In this document: positions 11,112-50,740 of the stretch, in pieces
Position numbering within the stretch: position 1 is the first letter of the stretch
Layout: every line of letters begins with the position of its first letter
Assembly (NCBI RefSeq): GCF_009914755.1
Contig: NC_060927.1
From: the human T2T-CHM13v2.0 reference genome, Homo sapiens
DNA length: 64,000 bases
Strand: one strand, 5' to 3'
Program-made: the position numbers and the translations under genes
The notes under the pieces: model-generated
The model's input: the letters and a program-made list of their open reading frames with translations, nothing else
Database searches by the model: none
What the model was told of the DNA's origin: nothing

Positions 11112-11195
11112 CTGAAAGAATGGCAAATTGTCTGTGAAGTTGTTCTATTATCTCCACCGCCATCAGGGGTCTGACTTCCTGCTGCATAATTTCAT
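11112..11195 (-). CDS. MCF2L2: MCF2L2 coding exon 2
   Basis: 84 nt; acceptor atttgtgcAG, donor CAG|GTaagg. Phase 1-1. Encodes (D)EIMQQEVRPLMAVEIIEQLHRQFAILS(G). Confidence 0.96.
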
Positions 11196-12061
11196 CTGCA
11201 CAAATGAAATACAAAGTGGGTTAGTTAAACATGTGCAAATTACAAGAAGAAATTAAAAAGAAACAAAGGCAAGTTGTACTATTGGGAAATCTGGGACTTA
11301 TCAAGAGACGGTGCTGGCACAACATTCCCTTGAGAACTTGATTGCTGAGATCCAGGGCTGTATCTGGATTTGTGTGCTTTGGAGCTTATGCATCTGAGCA
11401 TGGAACACATTTCTAGAGCCCCTACCAAGGCTTTGGGAGGGACCAATACAAGGAAAGAACCCTGAAGTTTAAGCTCCAGCAGCTTCACAGAAAACCTGCT
11501 GGATGACCTCATTACGAAGGCAGGTATTTGCCTACACCTTTGGGTCTGCAGAAGGACATTTTAAACACAAACAACATAAGTTACTAGAGCTCCTTTCAAA
11601 ACAGGTCATAAAATCAATCTGGGATTCATGAGGGTTCTTTAATTTTTATTTTCCTCCCTACCTCACTTCCTTCCTCCCCTACTTATCTCCATTCCTTTTT
11701 TTCCCCCTTCCAGAATACTTTAAGGGGCCTCTTCCTACTGCTAAATGTATATAAGAAGGCACTTTTTCATTTTTCTATTTAAAGATTCTCCTAACTGAAT
11801 AATAAGTTATATAGGTTTCCAATGCAAAAATCCAATCCTTTCAAGCACAAATCTACAAAGTTCCTCTAACCCTAGAAAGTGACTTATAAGCCCTGTGATT
11901 TGCCCTCATTTCCATTTGGGGAAAAGGAATTAGAGAGAGGGGAGGACCAACTGGAATCTTTCAACCTAGGCTGAAGAGAGGAAGGCATTTTCATGTTATC
12001 TCTGCCTAAGATATTATCTTCATTCAATTATTTCCCAGGGAATCTTAAAGAATAAACTGGT

Positions 12062-12349
12062 GGCTGGGTACTGAGGCCGAGGGGGAAGGACTATTTGAGG
12101 CCAGAAGTTTGAGACCAGCCTGGTCAACAGAGTAAGATCTTGTCTCCACAAAAAATTTAAAAATTAGCCAAGCATGGTGATGTATGCCTGCGGTCCCAGC
12201 TACTTGGGAGGCTGAGGCAGGAGAATCTCTTGAGTCTAGGAGTTTGAGGCTGTCGTTAGCCATGACTGTGCCACTGCACTCCAGCCTGGACAACAGATGG
12301 AGACCCTGTCTCAAAACAAAACAAAACAAAACAAAAACAATAACAAAAA
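12062..12349 (+). mobile_element. Alu (AluJ, 5' internal deletion) with (CAAAA)n tail
   Basis: Alu consensus. Confidence 0.9.
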
Positions 12350-12849
12350 ATGAATGAACTGGTTATTGTTTCTACAGGAGTTAAACATCTAGTTAGATTA
12401 AGGCATGAACCAAACAACCTGTGCTCTGATGCTAGGTGGGAATTTCCTACTGATTCATTATGGGGTCATGGTAACATTATGATATTCTAGTGTTGACCAA
12501 TCAGAAGGTAATATTTGGGAAGGTCCTCTCTGAGTCTTGGTCTACTCTCAGCTTTTTGGTGTGGAGGTTAAAGGAGATAATATATATGGAGATGTATATA
12601 GAGGGTGCTGAGCAAATGCTAGTTATATCCATTGTTCTGAACAGACAGGCCTTTCCCAAATTTGCTTTCTAAAAGCCTTTTTTTTTTTTTTTCTGAAAGT
12701 CTTGTAAGGGGTGGGCCAAGTGCCAGCTTAAGCCCCAAGATCCCCTTCAATGAATTCCCCCATTGTTTTGGGTAAAGGGGATAAATCTAGACCAGAGCTT
12801 CTTCATCCCAATACCACTTCCACCCTGAATTCACTAAAAGTTCAAAGAA

Positions 12850-47114: not shown

Positions 47115-47385
47115 CACTTTGGGAGGCCAAGGCCAAGGCAGACGGATCACCCGAGGTCAGGAGTTCAAGACCAATCTGACCAACATGGAGAAACCCGTCT
47201 CTACTAAAAATACAAAAAAAATTAGCCGGGCGTGGTGGCACATGCCTGTAATCCCAGCTACTCGGGAGGCTGAGGTAGGAGAATCGCTTGAACCCGGGAG
47301 GCGGAGGTTGCAGTGAGTCGAGATCACACCATTGCACTCCAGCCTGGGCAACAAGAGCGAAACTCCATCTCAAAAAAAAAAACAA
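47115..47385 (+). mobile_element. 5'-truncated Alu (AluSp-like) in a MIR
   Basis: 17-bp TSD aaaagatgatcctctct. Confidence 0.95.
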
Positions 47386-48769
47386 AAAAGATGATCCTCT
47401 CTGAGTCAATTCCTTCATTTGTAAAATAGGGGTAGTAATGAGTACCCCACCCATTTCACAGGTTTTATTAGATTAAGTATGAGGAGACAGAATCTTGCAA
47501 AGCACACAAAAGCCAAGGGTCATTAGAGGTTGAAAGGAGAAACTACAACAAATTCCTATGTGTATCCTGCATGGAGCTGTCTATAGAAGGAGGGAGGGAG
47601 CAAGGTAGGCAAGAAAATACCATAGCCTGGGCGCCACAGGCAGCTAAGTGTTAGTCAAGGAATACTGCCTGCCAGATTTTCAAGAAGAGCCTGCTCCAGA
47701 GAAATAGGAGGGACCTTTAAAATCATCCAGGTCAACCCCTCGTTTAACAGATGGGAGGCTTCGCCCTGAGAGAGGCCCAGTAACCCACCAAAGATCTTTA
47801 GTGGCGTGACAGAGGGACCAGGGATATGTCTAATAACTGAAATGTCTGTATAATCACAGTGTACACAGTATTTCTACCCAAATTATCTTACTTATCTTCA
47901 CAAGTAGCCTTTGAGCTGAGTGGGAAAGTACTATTAAAATTCCTATTTTTCAACCTGAGGTCGAATGACTTGTCCAGGGAAAGATTCAAATCCAGACGGT
48001 CACACCCCGAGTCCACTGCTCTTTCTCTATACCACAACTTCATGCCTGTGCTGGGTTTTAGCACAATCATTTCAACTTTCATCATATTGCAGATTCCGAA
48101 TTCTGTTTCATTACAAGTTCTTTTTCCTCTTATTTCACACTGCCTTCAGCAATATTTCACATTCAACCTTACCTGGTAGGATCCTACTGATCTTTTGTCG
48201 TAAAAGTTCAGTGCCCACAATTGGCACCAGAAACTTTTTTCTAAACTTGAATTATCAAAACTGGGCCTTCCCATATAAATCATCTTTACAAAGTATGTCC
48301 TCACAAGTGTATCATTTGAGATGTGCACGATTATTACAGCAAACACGTTGGACTAATTGAGGCAACATTTAACATGCAAGTACCAAGAAAGCAGCTTTCA
48401 CAAATGTGTAGAAAACCAAGGCAAATAGTTCCTGGCTTTATCAATAAAAGCTGATTTGCATTCATGGGAGGACCTCCAAGCACAGTCAGCAACAGAGAAA
48501 ATGATCCCGATAATTCCAGTTGCCCACATCCAGAGGTTCTGAACCTGAATGTGTGTCTTTACTGAGGGAGGTCCAGGGAAGGCCAAGGGGAAGAAAGTGC
48601 TAAGAAAAAACTGACTGGGAACTGTCTCAATGTCCTCTTGCCCTTACTTAGTCTGTGGGGCCTGACGTTCCATCACAACCCTTATTTCAGGAGCAAGCAA
48701 TGCATGTTTTGCTCCTCTTTTCAACTCAGGGAAGAAGATTAAAATTGCTCAGTCTCCTTGGCTTGCAGA

Positions 48770-50740
48770 GATTTCTCGCGGGGATCATCAGGGGTGTGCT
48801 TAACCCTCCAGGCAGCACAGTAAAACAGGCCTAGCGGCCGAGCTGCGCAGGGGCGCTCCCATGTAACCTGCCTCTCCCTGCACTTTCTTATAAACAAGCC
48901 TTCAGTGGCGTGGCAATCATTTCTGCTGAAAAGCACTGGCATTCGTTCCTCTTATGCCCTCTCCTTTCTCACTATCCCCAAAACCAGAACATAACTTCCC
49001 ACCCACCCTACTCCCGTCAGAAGCAGCTAACGGATGGTAACAGCCCAGCAGCCCTCGGTTTGGAGCTCAACGGACTCGGCAACCACCTGGTGAAGGCACC
49101 AGCCTCGGCCCCCCGACCCCCACCAGCGGCGCGCCCCAGGGATGCCCCCCGCTGGGCACCGCAGGCAGGACCCAGAGCAGCGAGGCCCAGATGCCGGGCA
49201 ACCCCCCAGGAAGCGCGCTGCCCCGGGGCAGCGGGTGAGGCCAGGAGCCAGATGAAGCCCAGAGACCATCCTCACCCGCCATTAATAAAACGCAGGAAAA
49301 ATTAAAGCTTCGTTTACCGACATGAGTGATCACTGTGGCCAGTCGCCGGGTGAGCTCCTGGGGAGGCATCTCTTCTTTTAAGCAAGACAGCATTTCACTG
49401 AAAAACCATTCCGTATAAATAAAGCCAAACAAAACTGTTTCTACCGCTGCGGTGGATGATTTTTTAAAGGCATCTCCGCCCAAGGATGCTCTGCCCTCGC
49501 CCTCTTCCTGGCTCTCCAGGCAAGAAACGAGAGTCCCTCGCAGCCTAGGCCAGCTCTCCCTCGCCACGCCCCGCGGGGGCTCCCGTGACAGACCAAGTCT
49601 GGCGCTTTCCCAGCGTCGCAGCTGGACCGAGAGAGGAGCGGCCGTTCTGCAAAAGGAAGCAAGTCGCCAATCTCGCCGGAACCGCGCCCCGGCTCCTCCG
49701 GCCGGGCGAGCTCCGGGGCTTCCAGAATCGCGGTCCCGGCCGCCAGGTTTCCGGCGCCGCCTCCAGGGACTGTAGAGTGAGGGATGCTCCGCCAGGTGCA
49801 GGGGAGGCGGCAGGTGGCCGTGGCTTCTCTGCGCCGCCGGCCCCACGCCCCAGCGCCCACCTCGTCCAGCCCACGGGTGGCGCCCGGGGCTCTCGGGGAG
49901 GCACGCACGCTCCCAAGCGCCGCTCGTTTTGGGGTCGGGAACGCTGCGCACCTTTCCCTGCGGGGAGCCCGCGCTCCACCCCCGGAGTGGAGCTCCGGTC
50001 CTTACTCGGAACCGTGGGGCGGGGAGACAGTGACTGAGGCGCTCCAGTCGCACCGGGGTCCGGATCATCAGACGCGCGCCGGCCAGGTCTCCGCCCCTCC
50101 TTCTTCCGCGCCGGGTGTCTGCGGAGGAGCCGCGGAGAGAAGGGGGCTGGCCCGGAGAGCTGCCGCCATCCGGCAGGACCCGGAGCGGGAGGCTGGGTGA
50201 GGCGCCGCTGCTTGCCCCACCTCCTGACCCCGGGGGCGGCTGGCGTGTGTTTTCCCCCACTTGGGGTTGTTCCACGCAGTTCTTGACCTCCGCTGGCCAC
50301 ACCTGCACTGGGAGCCCGGCGCCCGGGCTGCGCTCCGACAAGGCTGAGCACGCGTGGGCGCGCTCACCCCCTATGTGGGCGTTTTCCTTCGTGCAGCTGC
50401 GCCCTTGCCTCTGCTCCGTCTGTCACCTGTCAGGCACGCCAGTGCTACCTTCTGGAGGGGCTGTGGCACATCCTCCATGCTGGTCCTCCTCCCCATCAGC
50501 CCATTATCCCGTGGTTTCCCTAGTTGGGCCCAGACACTTTCTGACTGGCAGCAAAAGACTAACCCCAGTTCAGCAGAGCGCTACGGGAAACGCCTGAGCA
50601 AATGCGAATTCGGTCAGGTTGTCCCCCAATCCTTTCTACAGCGGGAGTCCCTGAATACTCAGCAGGCGGAATGGCGGGACCACCCAGGCGGATGTTCTCA
50701 GCCATCTCTTTCCTCTTCGATATGTAAAAAGCCAAGCCGC
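48770..50740. promoter_or_regulatory. CpG island / MCF2L2 promoter and 5' UTR
   Basis: About 2 kb of very GC- and CpG-rich non-repeat sequence with GC boxes (gggcgggg, ctccgcccc) around coding exon 1. Confidence 0.9.
49318..49393 (-). CDS. MCF2L2: MCF2L2 coding part of exon 1
   Basis: ATG at 49393; 76 nt encoding MLSCLKEEMPPQELTRRLATVITHV plus G; donor G|GTaaac joins exon 2 in frame (G+AT=D). Lies in a CpG island. Confidence 0.95.

What the first reader, a model, noticed from the sequence alone, without database searches (positions are those of the whole stretch)
11112..49393. Possible array of interchangeable N-termini: four phase-1 first exons converging on exon 2
Seen: besides exon 1, three unique-sequence stretches of intron 1 each have an ATG and a GT donor exactly 3n+1 nt apart (32811-32787, 21947-21767, 15146-15059), the phase exon 2 needs. 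Established: the paralog MCF2L/Dbs uses several alternative first exons spliced onto the homologous DEIM exon. Inference: MCF2L2 keeps an ancestral multi-promoter N-terminal cassette ahead of the SEC14-like domain, partly decayed in this lineage. Phase agreement alone is a 1-in-3 event per candidate and I searched by eye, so conservation is the real test.
Basis: partly seen in the sequence, partly recalled or inferred. Interest (0 to 1): 0.7.

Follow-up and report, generated by a model that had tools for sequence, protein, structure and literature searches.

The report
Conserved second first exon of MCF2L2
One of the three proposed extra first exons in intron 1 of human MCF2L2 is a real coding exon conserved from birds to mammals and related to a first exon of the sister gene MCF2L, while the other two look like chance.

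Summary
The arithmetic holds for all three candidates: each is ATG to GT, 3n+1 nt apart. As a pattern it is pure chance. Intron 1 holds 720 open phase-1 ATG..GT pairs on the sense strand, against 737 and 740 in the other phases.

Candidate 3 (15146-15059) has an in-frame TAA at codon 9. Candidate 1 (32811-32787, 8 codons) has no support.

Candidate 2 (21947-21767, 60 codons) is real. Its peptide, joined to exon 2 exactly as proposed, opens predicted MCF2L2 isoforms of macaque, squirrel, shrew, two bats and a quail (6 of 120 listed proteins). Another 22 relatives turned up in an exhaustive search. Similarity stops at the splice donor.

MCF2L carries at least seven first-exon types joined to its DEIM exon. 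MCF2L2 exon 1 matches type A and candidate 2 matches type F, in the same genomic order.

So there is a two-member ancestral cassette, not four. Use of candidate 2 in human tissue is untested here. The likely role is an alternative peptide ahead of the Sec14 domain, as in Kalirin. This is a new member of a known kind, of moderate interest.

The parts
21767..21947 (-). c2: alternative first coding exon of MCF2L2 (181 nt, 60 codons plus 1 base, phase 1). It encodes a front peptide with a conserved core from about residue 17 to residue 60.
   Evidence: - Open frame, with an in-frame TAG two codons upstream of the ATG.
- 95% identical to the N-terminus of macaque MCF2L2 isoform X4, which continues straight into exon 2.
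- Relatives found in 6 of 120 listed MCF2L2 proteins and 22 of 26 hits of the exhaustive search.
- Identity drops at the donor.
21806..22307 (.). RefSeq 'enhancer' covering the 5' part of c2 and 360 nt upstream. Candidate promoter or start-site region for c2 transcripts (inference).
   Evidence: - Hub annotation.
- CpG observed/expected 0.59, the 96th percentile of 500-nt windows in this window, but not a CpG island.
- CCAAT at 22058-22054.
- A possible acceptor AG at 22962-21961 region (AG at 21962-21961), so an upstream non-coding leader exon cannot be excluded.
49318..50035 (-). Exon 1 of the selected transcript (CDS 49393-49318, 25 codons plus 1 base, phase 1). The type-A front peptide.
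   Evidence: - Hub annotation.
- 88 of 120 listed MCF2L2 proteins carry this type.
- Homologous to the MCF2L type-A first exon: hhalign probability 97.2%, E 4e-11; HMM top hit E 8.4e-4.
- CpG-island promoter: GC 0.68, CpG o/e 0.80.
11112..11195 (-). Exon 2, the shared acceptor exon (D)EIMQQEV..., where the Sec14/CRAL_TRIO region begins.
   Evidence: -.
- Homologous MCF2L exon found in the same genome.
- Every front peptide joins here in phase 1.
32787..32811 (-). c1: 8-codon ATG..GT stretch. Judged a chance match, not part of the system.
   Evidence: - Arithmetic right, good Kozak context and a GTAAGT donor.
- 0 of 120 proteins carry it and no front peptide maps here.
- CpG o/e 0.08.
- 8 other phase-1 pairs in the intron have GTAAGT or GTGAGT donors.
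- Too short to test by similarity.
15059..15146 (-). c3: not an open exon; rejected.
   Evidence: - In-frame TAA at codon 9.
- No front peptide or MCF2L first-exon profile matches here.

Best explanation
MCF2L2 has two mutually exclusive first coding exons, not four.

- The annotated exon 1 (49393-49318) encodes a 25-residue peptide.
- A second first exon, c2 (21947-21767), lies 27.4 kb downstream. It has its own ATG and encodes a 60-residue peptide.
- Both end in phase 1 and splice to exon 2 (acceptor 11195). The two isoforms therefore differ only in the 'front peptide' placed just ahead of the Sec14/CRAL_TRIO domain.

**Shown**
- c2 is an open, single-copy exon.
- Its protein sequence is conserved across placental mammals and a bird, with conservation ending at the donor.
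- Gene models in other species join it to exon 2 exactly as proposed.
- Exon 1 and c2 are each homologous to a different first exon of the paralog MCF2L (types A and F), in the same 5'-to-3' order.

**Inferred**
- The two-exon cassette predates the MCF2L/MCF2L2 duplication.
- c2 transcripts start at an intronic promoter in or near the RefSeq 'enhancer' 21806-22307.
- By analogy with Kalirin Ex1B/Ex1C, the front peptide changes how the Sec14 domain meets membranes or partners. The c2 core, with its invariant R-I-x-E-x-E-M-x-x-Y...C...L pattern and an upstream CxxC, may form an amphipathic helix.

c1 and c3 are chance ATG..GT pairs.
For: **c2 as a spliced first exon in other species**
- Searching with the exon-3 open frame returned 199 proteins; the best 120 were listed.
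- Of those 120, 6 have a c2-type front peptide joined directly to exon 2: P0014 Macaca fascicularis X4, P0080 Ictidomys X4, P0089 Sorex X2, P0065 Myotis, P0069 Glossophaga and P0071 Callipepla. 88 have the exon-1 type.
- A direct search with c2 found P0014 at 95% identity plus 4 more.
- The exhaustive HMMER search gave 26 hits at E<=1e-3. Of these, 22 are c2-like, with mammal-type and bird-type cores.

**Coding-type conservation**
- An alignment of 20 sequences has invariant P30 R35 I36 E38 E40 M41 Y44 C51 L54, and similarity ends at KK|G.
- Exon-core identity is 0.75 within mammal-type sequences, 0.73 within bird-type and 0.56 between them. For the 20 residues past the donor it is 0.11-0.14.

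**Homology to MCF2L first exons**
- Seven MCF2L front types were mapped in the order B, C, A, D, F, G, E, then exon 2.
- The c2 profile was run against the six-frame translation of the 200 kb upstream of MCF2L exon 2 (10,042 pieces). The top hit is exactly the type-F exon, at E 0.0031 (9 sequences) and 4.9e-4 (20 sequences). The next best hits are E 0.93 and 1.4.
- The exon-1 profile's top hit is the type-A exon, E 8.4e-4, next best 0.31.
- 0 of 12 shuffles and the reversed set reached either real score: maxima 12.0 and 14.3 bits against 18.9 and 18.4.
- hhalign gives exon 1 vs A a probability of 97.2% (E 4e-11) and c2 vs F 57% (E 1e-4). The other 12 type pairs have E >= 0.08.

**Local context**
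- A TAG sits two codons upstream of the c2 ATG.
- The Kozak context has G at -3 and G at +4.
- c2 overlaps a RefSeq enhancer (hub annotation) and has raised CpG o/e.

**Analogy**
- Passages of PMC9823006 describe four KALRN first exons joined to a common exon 2. Their front peptides change Sec14 lipid binding and localisation.
Against: - No human transcript, CAGE or junction data were available. The selected RefSeq transcript uses exon 1, and the other six RefSeq transcripts were not visible.
- No full-length human protein with c2 came up. Clustering at 90% identity could hide one.
- The c2 donor is weak on a crude recalled-weight score: 1.26, against 7.45 and 6.75 for the exon 2 and exon 3 donors. 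Exon 1's own donor scores 0.10.
- The c2/type-F similarity is short (22-26 columns, 38% identity) and hhalign probability is only 57%.
- The reverse searches failed. Profiles of MCF2L types A and F did not recover exon 1 or c2 in the window; their best hits were E 0.72 and 0.53, elsewhere.
- The whole-genome search with the c2 peptide found nothing on chr13 at E<=10.
- With only two shared exons, matching order is a 1-in-2 event.
- Whether the other species' models rest on RNA evidence could not be checked.
Confidence: 0.78

Rival explanations
1. c2 is a conserved first exon in other amniotes but a silent relic in humans. The sequence survives, yet the promoter is no longer used or the weak donor is not spliced, so only exon 1 feeds acceptor 11195 in human tissues.
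For: - The selected human transcript uses exon 1 (hub annotation).
- No full-length human c2 protein was found.
- The methionine conserved in bats and birds (M-A-S-W/R-C) is valine in human and macaque.
- The donor GTAGTG lacks the +5 G.
- MCF2L2 is dispensable in some lineages: mice lack it (PMC5499878, passages).
Against: - The human exon is fully open and keeps all nine invariant residues.
- It has an upstream ATG shared with macaque, squirrel and shrew models, in a good Kozak context.
- The region is flagged as regulatory DNA and has kept its CpGs.
- Exon 1's donor scores even lower.
Confidence: 0.14
2. All four first exons are real. c1 and c3 would be lineage-specific or very short first exons that database models miss.
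For: - c1 has a strong Kozak context and a GTAAGT donor.
- It lies 206 nt downstream of a RefSeq 'silencer' at 33017-33311 (hub annotation).
- Eight-codon first exons cannot be found by similarity search.
Against: - c3 has an in-frame TAA at codon 9.
- 0 of 120 MCF2L2 proteins carry c1 or c3, and none of the 227 front peptides maps there.
- No MCF2L first-exon profile matches there.
- 724 such phase-1 pairs exist by chance, 8 of them with GTAAGT or GTGAGT donors.
- CpG o/e is at intron background: 0.08 and 0.16.
Confidence: 0.04
3. c2 is conserved as non-coding regulatory DNA (the enhancer) or as a separate small ORF. Its open frame and phase would then be incidental, and the isoform models prediction artefacts.
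For: - It overlaps a RefSeq enhancer (hub annotation).
- Many database hits are short read-through ORFs rather than spliced proteins.
Against: - Conservation is at the protein level, with conservative swaps (R/K, A/S).
- It stops at the donor: 0.56-0.75 identity inside, 0.11-0.14 just past it.
- Six named models from five orders splice it to exon 2 in frame.
- The homologous MCF2L exon is used as a first coding exon in named MCF2L models: P0182, P0188, P0134, P0165.
Confidence: 0.03

Closest known systems
MCF2L (DBS/OST) alternative first exons, especially the type-F exon (front peptide MGDGK...AEMKSYY...SEWC..., P0182/P0188; human copy at G000:C13:112236579-112236674)
   Same: - Several first exons, each with its own ATG, all ending in phase 1 and joined to the homologous DEIM exon.
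- The type-F exon is the specific sequence relative of c2, and type A of MCF2L2 exon 1, in the same order (A upstream of F).
   Different: - MCF2L shows at least seven types; MCF2L2 shows two detectable ones.
- Type F lacks the CxxC-containing N-terminal half of c2 and shares only about 38% identity over about 26 residues.
- Spacing differs. A to F is about 17 kb and F to exon 2 about 29 kb in MCF2L, against 27.4 kb and 10.6 kb in MCF2L2.
KALRN (Kalirin) promoters and first exons Ex1A-Ex1D (PMC9823006, passages read)
   Same: - Alternative initiation exons place different short peptides directly ahead of the CRAL_TRIO/Sec14 domain, which starts in a common exon 2.
- The peptides differ in charge and helix-forming character, and they change lipid binding and localisation.
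   Different: - No sequence similarity between Kalirin front peptides and c2 was tested here.
- The function of the MCF2L2 peptides is untested.
- That paper lists MCF2L2 only as having a front peptide, and names alternative ones for TRIO and MCF2L. Its Supplementary Fig. 16b was not seen.
TRIO alternative front peptides (PMC9823006, passage)
   Same: Same gene family (SecSR RhoGEFs) and the same idea of isoform-specific front peptides.
   Different: Not examined here at sequence level.

Membership tests
Protein-coding exon under purifying selection | Open reading frame with a usable start codon | tested here: met
   - c2: 60 open codons, ATG with G at -3 and G at +4, TAG two codons upstream.
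- c3 fails: TAA at codon 9.
Protein-coding exon under purifying selection | Amino-acid conservation across distant species that ends at the splice site | tested here: met
   - c2: nine invariant residues in 20 sequences.
- Identity 0.56 between mammal-type and bird-type cores, against 0.11 past the donor.
- c1 and c3: no relatives found.
Protein-coding exon under purifying selection | Codon-level signature (dN/dS below 1, PhyloCSF) | not testable with these tools
   No DNA of other vertebrates was available; only protein sequences.
Alternative-first-exon ('front peptide') system of Sec14-spectrin RhoGEFs (KALRN, TRIO, MCF2L) | Two or more first exons, each with its own ATG, joined in the same phase to one common exon where the CRAL_TRIO region begins | tested here: met
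   - Exon 1 and c2 both end in phase 1.
- Models with either front continue identically from D-E-I-M.
Alternative-first-exon ('front peptide') system of Sec14-spectrin RhoGEFs (KALRN, TRIO, MCF2L) | A separate promoter or start site for each first exon | not testable with these tools
   - Only indirect signs: the RefSeq enhancer 21806-22307 over c2 and CpG o/e 0.59.
- A possible acceptor at 21962-21961 leaves an upstream leader exon open.
Alternative-first-exon ('front peptide') system of Sec14-spectrin RhoGEFs (KALRN, TRIO, MCF2L) | Front peptides with different biophysical character | tested here: inconclusive
   - Exon-1 peptide: 26 residues, net charge -1. c2 peptide: 61 residues, net charge +1.
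- Highest 18-residue helical moment is 0.55 for c2 against 0.43 for exon 1, on a recalled Eisenberg scale.
- Two AlphaFold2 models place a helix over the c2 core, but at pLDDT below 50.
Alternative-first-exon ('front peptide') system of Sec14-spectrin RhoGEFs (KALRN, TRIO, MCF2L) | Isoform-specific effect on lipid binding or localisation | not testable with these tools
   Needs experiments. Known for Kalirin only (PMC9823006).
Homolog of the MCF2L type-F first exon | Specific, significant sequence similarity | tested here: met
   - Profile top hit in 10,042 six-frame pieces is the F exon: E 4.9e-4, next best 1.4.
- 0 of 12 shuffles reach the real score.
- hhalign E 1e-4, against >=0.12 for the other six types.
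- Weak points: short match, hhalign probability 57%, reverse search negative.
Homolog of the MCF2L type-F first exon | Same exon end, phase and relative position in the gene | tested here: met
   - Both end ...M-A-(K/E)-x with a final G completing GAT (D) in exon 2.
- The human MCF2L copy ends GAG G|GTGAGT.
- Both lie between the type-A exon and exon 2.

The most novel reading that the evidence does not exclude
The front-peptide cassette of the MCF2 family is older than the duplication that separated MCF2L from MCF2L2. At least two first exons (A and F/c2) have been kept as distinct, mutually exclusive N-termini in both genes ever since. That implies each peptide has its own conserved job. The c2/F peptide, with its invariant RI-E-EM--Y...C...L core and in MCF2L2 an added CxxC, would be an undescribed targeting or regulatory module for the Sec14 domain. 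It would be driven in humans by an intronic promoter currently labelled only as an enhancer.
Probability: 0.45. Interest if true: 0.55.

Novelty: new member of a known kind. Interest (0 to 1): 0.4.

Why it matters
MCF2L2 is a little-studied RhoGEF that sits in loci associated with Parkinson's disease, diabetes and ceramide levels (PMC12772658, passages).

A second, deeply conserved N-terminus would have three consequences:
- Variants in intron 1 around 21.8-22.3 kb of this window could hit a promoter and coding exon rather than 'just' an enhancer.
- Expression and knock-down studies keyed to exon 1 would miss an isoform.
- The front-peptide idea worked out for Kalirin would extend to the MCF2 branch, with a concrete pair of peptides (A and F) conserved in two paralogs that can be compared experimentally.

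It is also a caution about method. Yet one of the three picks was right.

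Tried and rejected
- **Chance reading for all three.** This was my first view. I dropped it for c2.
- **Whole-genome searches.** The c2 peptide and the DNA of each candidate found only self matches, with none at MCF2L or MCF2. The first-look filter is too insensitive for the weak c2/F similarity.
- **Profiles of MCF2L types A-G against the window.** No significant hit; best E values 0.39-2.1.
- **Second exon-1-like hit at 36241-36191.** E 2.7e-4, but it is flanked by stops and lies in an interspersed repeat with 3,881 first-look candidates. 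Treated as chance.
- **MCF2 (chrX).** Only 50 kb upstream of its exon-3 homolog could be fetched. There was no A- or F-type hit on the sense strand; best E values of 0.2-0.25 were on the other strand. MCF2 remains open.
- **Pfam on the c2 peptide and three relatives.** Only sub-threshold noise.
- **AlphaFold2.** Macaque X4 (1085 aa, 30 sequences) gave mean pLDDT 37.9. The Myotis fragment (184 aa, 53 sequences) gave 48.1. Both were too poor for fold search or for any claim beyond a low-confidence helix.
- **Rfam on the whole window.** Only an Alu-derived SRP match at 9063-9179.
- **Literature.** 'MCF2L2'+'isoform' gave 40 papers; I saw the listing of 20. 'MCF2L2'+'alternative promoter' gave 1 irrelevant paper. 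'MCF2L'+'alternative first exon' gave 0. The c2 core motif as a string gave 0. Nothing in print on a second MCF2L2 first exon within that library.
- **Not available.** PMC5274606 is not held.

Full report
**What was checked**

The window is the 5' end of human MCF2L2 on the minus strand.

- Exon 1 codes from 49393 to 49318 (76 nt, phase 1).
- Exon 2 (11195-11112) begins with AT, so a carried-over G gives D-E-I-M.
  - c1: 32811-32787, 25 nt
  - c2: 21947-21767, 181 nt
  - c3: 15146-15059, 88 nt
- All three are single copy in the genome.
- c3 is not open. Its frame reads eight codons and then TAA, and the neighbouring ATG at 15153 is in the wrong phase.

**Is the pattern more than chance?**

No.

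- The 38,122-nt intron holds 720 open ATG..GT pairs in phase 1 on the sense strand, against 737 and 740 in the other two phases.
- Without a length cap there are 724. Of these, 63 are at least as long as c2, 30 have a GTRAG donor and 8 have GTAAGT or GTGAGT.
- On a crude donor score built from recalled position weights, the candidates score 1.3-3.0. The exon 2 and exon 3 donors score 7.45 and 6.75, and exon 1's own donor scores 0.10.

At this point I rated all three as chance.

**The result that changed the reading**

The large protein collection includes vertebrate gene models. I queried it with the 45-residue open frame around exon 3.

- 199 proteins passed, and the best 120 were listed. Almost all are MCF2L2 from named mammals.
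- I cut each protein at its exon-2 match and sorted by what precedes it:
  - 88 of 120 carry the exon-1-type peptide.
  - 2 carry exon 1 plus an extra cassette.
  - 5 start inside exon 2.
  - 9 lack exon 2.
  - 10 have other fronts (repeat-derived, fusions, fish).
  - 6 carry a peptide that is plainly c2.
- The six are Macaca fascicularis isoform X4 (57 of 60 residues identical to human c2), Ictidomys X4, Sorex X2, Myotis, Glossophaga and the quail Callipepla.
The quail model, an unnamed 'hypothetical protein', has an extra 42 residues between the two.
- Searching with c2 itself found 5 proteins among 7 candidates.
- The exhaustive HMMER scan of 1.84 billion representatives found 26 at E<=1e-3. 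Of these, 22 are c2-like. Most are short ORFs that read through the donor. The other 4 are unrelated repeat proteins.

**Coding-type conservation**

- An alignment of 20 of these sequences has nine invariant positions: P30, R35, I36, E38, E40, M41, Y44, C51, L54.
- It also has a near-invariant CxxC further upstream, and no similarity after K-K|G.
- Anchored on the invariant motif, core identity is 0.75 within the mammal-type set, 0.73 within the bird-type set and 0.56 between them.
- The 20 residues past the donor score 0.11-0.14 (17 sequences, ungapped).
- The N-terminal 16 or so residues vary, and start codons differ between lineages.
- Human and macaque have lost the methionine used in bats and birds, but share an upstream ATG with squirrel and shrew.
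- In human, a TAG two codons upstream closes the frame, so this ATG is the first possible start.
- No Pfam family matches the peptide.

**The paralog**

- The homologous exon of MCF2L lies at G000:C13:112265874-112265954 and reads ADEIMHQD....
- Querying with its open frame returned 199 proteins, 120 listed, nearly all DBS/MCF2L.
- Their front peptides all end in the same phase and fall into at least seven types. By motif the counts are A 24, B 34, C 14, D 10, E 15, F 4, G 1.
- On the 200 kb upstream of exon 2 they map in the order B (86 kb into the stretch), C (153 kb), A (153.8 kb), D (165 kb), F (170.7 kb), G (182 kb), E (187 kb), with exon 2 at 200 kb.

It also agrees with the statement in PMC9823006 that MCF2L, TRIO and KALRN make isoforms with different front peptides (passages).

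**Homology of the cassettes**

- A profile of MCF2L2 exon-1 peptides (25 unique) was run over all 10,042 six-frame pieces of that 200 kb. Its top hit is exactly the type-A exon (E 8.4e-4, next 0.31). hhalign gives 97.2% probability, E 4e-11.
- A profile of c2 peptides has as its top hit exactly the type-F exon: E 0.0031 with 9 sequences and 4.9e-4 with 20, next best 0.93 and 1.4.
- The aligned core is V-R-I-(T/S)-x-A-E-M-(R/K)-(A/S)-Y...C...L.
- Reversed pieces and 12 shuffles never reached the real scores: maxima 12.0 and 14.3 bits against 18.9 and 18.4.
- hhalign of c2 against each MCF2L type gives E 1e-4 for F and 0.12 or worse for the other six.
- The human type-F exon ends GAG G|GTGAGT, the same phase and the same junction residue.
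- In both genes the A-type exon lies upstream of the F-type exon.

Against this:
- The match is short (about 26 columns, 38% identity).
- hhalign probability is 57%.
- The narrow MCF2L-type profiles did not find exon 1 or c2 in the window.
- The whole-genome peptide search missed chr13.
- With two exons, shared order is only a 1-in-2 event.

I take the paralogy as probable rather than proven.

**c1, c3 and the missing types**

- None of 227 front peptides maps to c1 or c3 by tblastn at E<0.05.
- No MCF2L type profile hits there.
- Their CpG content is at intron background.
- c1 is too short for any similarity test, so it is unsupported rather than disproved. c3 is disproved as a coding first exon.
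- Types B, C, D, E and G have no detectable counterpart anywhere in the 64 kb.
- For MCF2, only 50 kb could be fetched, and it showed nothing.

**Regulatory setting**

- An element of 502 nt plus a 181-nt exon covers about 1.8% of the intron, so the overlap is unlikely to be accidental (inference).
- CpG observed/expected there is 0.59, the 96th percentile for this window but well short of the exon-1 CpG island at 0.80.
- There is a CCAAT at 22058-22054, and an AG preceded by a pyrimidine-rich run at 21962-21961. c2 could therefore also be fed by an upstream non-coding leader.
- If c2 were spliced after exon 1, the exon-1 frame would hit a stop within c2 (read from the sequence). The conserved peptide therefore needs transcripts that skip the exon-1 ATG.

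**How it most likely works**

- Shown: two alternative ATG-bearing first exons converge in one phase on the exon that opens the Sec14 region.
- Inferred: an intronic promoter drives c2 transcripts, and the product is full-length MCF2L2 with a 60-residue front peptide in place of 25 residues.
- For Kalirin, the front peptide decides whether the Sec14 domain binds phosphoinositide liposomes and where the protein sits (PMC9823006, passages).
- The c2 peptide has net charge +1 against -1 for exon 1. Its highest helical hydrophobic moment is 0.55 against 0.43, over Y31-V48 (recalled scale).
- Both AlphaFold2 runs drew a helix over the conserved core, but at pLDDT below 50, so that is only a hint.
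- The conserved cysteines (CxxC, C51, often C56) and histidines suggest metal binding. This is speculation.

**Novelty**

- The kind of system is known for KALRN, TRIO and MCF2L.
- c2 already exists in automated gene models of other species.
- In the searched library I found nothing on a second MCF2L2 first exon or on its relation to an MCF2L first exon.
- PMC9823006 credits MCF2L2 only with 'a front peptide'. I could not see its Supplementary Fig. 16b.
- Whether human RefSeq or GENCODE already model c2 is unknown to me.

**Verdict**

One real conserved alternative first exon is present out of three proposed. This is a new member of a known kind, of moderate interest.

Noticed in passing
window 48385-48587 (-): The extra 66-residue cassette between exon 1 and exon 2 in Macaca nemestrina MCF2L2 isoform X3 (P0015/P0016) maps here at 90-95% identity. 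In human the two halves lie in different frames, and the first frame soon hits a stop. It could not be an in-frame coding cassette in human.
   Followed up: partly
window 36191-36241 (-): A 17-residue piece resembling the exon-1 peptide (K-E-Q-M-S-Q-Q-E-L-T-R; profile E 2.7e-4). It is flanked by stops and lies inside an old interspersed repeat with thousands of copies, about 73% identical. Judged a chance match.
   Followed up: yes
window 21961-21962 and 22054-22058 (-): A plausible 3' splice site (pyrimidine-rich run, then CAG) sits 14 nt upstream of the c2 ATG, and a CCAAT motif about 110 nt upstream. c2 may have either its own start site or an upstream non-coding leader exon.
   Followed up: no
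window 33017-33311: The RefSeq 'silencer' lies 206 nt upstream of c1 on the gene strand. It has no CpG at all (0 in 295 nt), and nothing else links it to an exon.
   Followed up: partly
L011-L030 (G000:C13:112065874-112265873): Human MCF2L carries at least seven phase-1 first-exon types in the order B, C, A, D, F, G, E upstream of its DEIM exon. C and A are only about 0.7 kb apart. Type E (M-T-V-S-R-L-S-L-L...) is strongly hydrophobic and type D is very basic (net charge +8).
   Followed up: partly
P0084 (Marmota MCF2L2 model) against window Alu copies: This model's front peptide matches Alu/B1-type repeats all over the window. Its junction residue is Y, as c1's would be. It is an example of a repeat-derived first exon in a gene model.
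   Followed up: no
window 9063-9179 (+): The only Rfam hit in the window is Metazoa_SRP at 70.9 bits, inside a masked repeat. It is an Alu, not an SRP RNA gene.
   Followed up: no
window 21650-21738 (-): The stretch just downstream of c2 matches G000:C23:120402794-120402878 at 85% over 89 nt. It is probably a small repeat fragment and is unrelated to MCF2.
   Followed up: no
literature (PMC5499878, passages): MCF2L2 is reported lost in mice and several other rodents, although squirrel models here keep both first exons. Mouse genetics therefore cannot address the c2 isoform.
   Followed up: no
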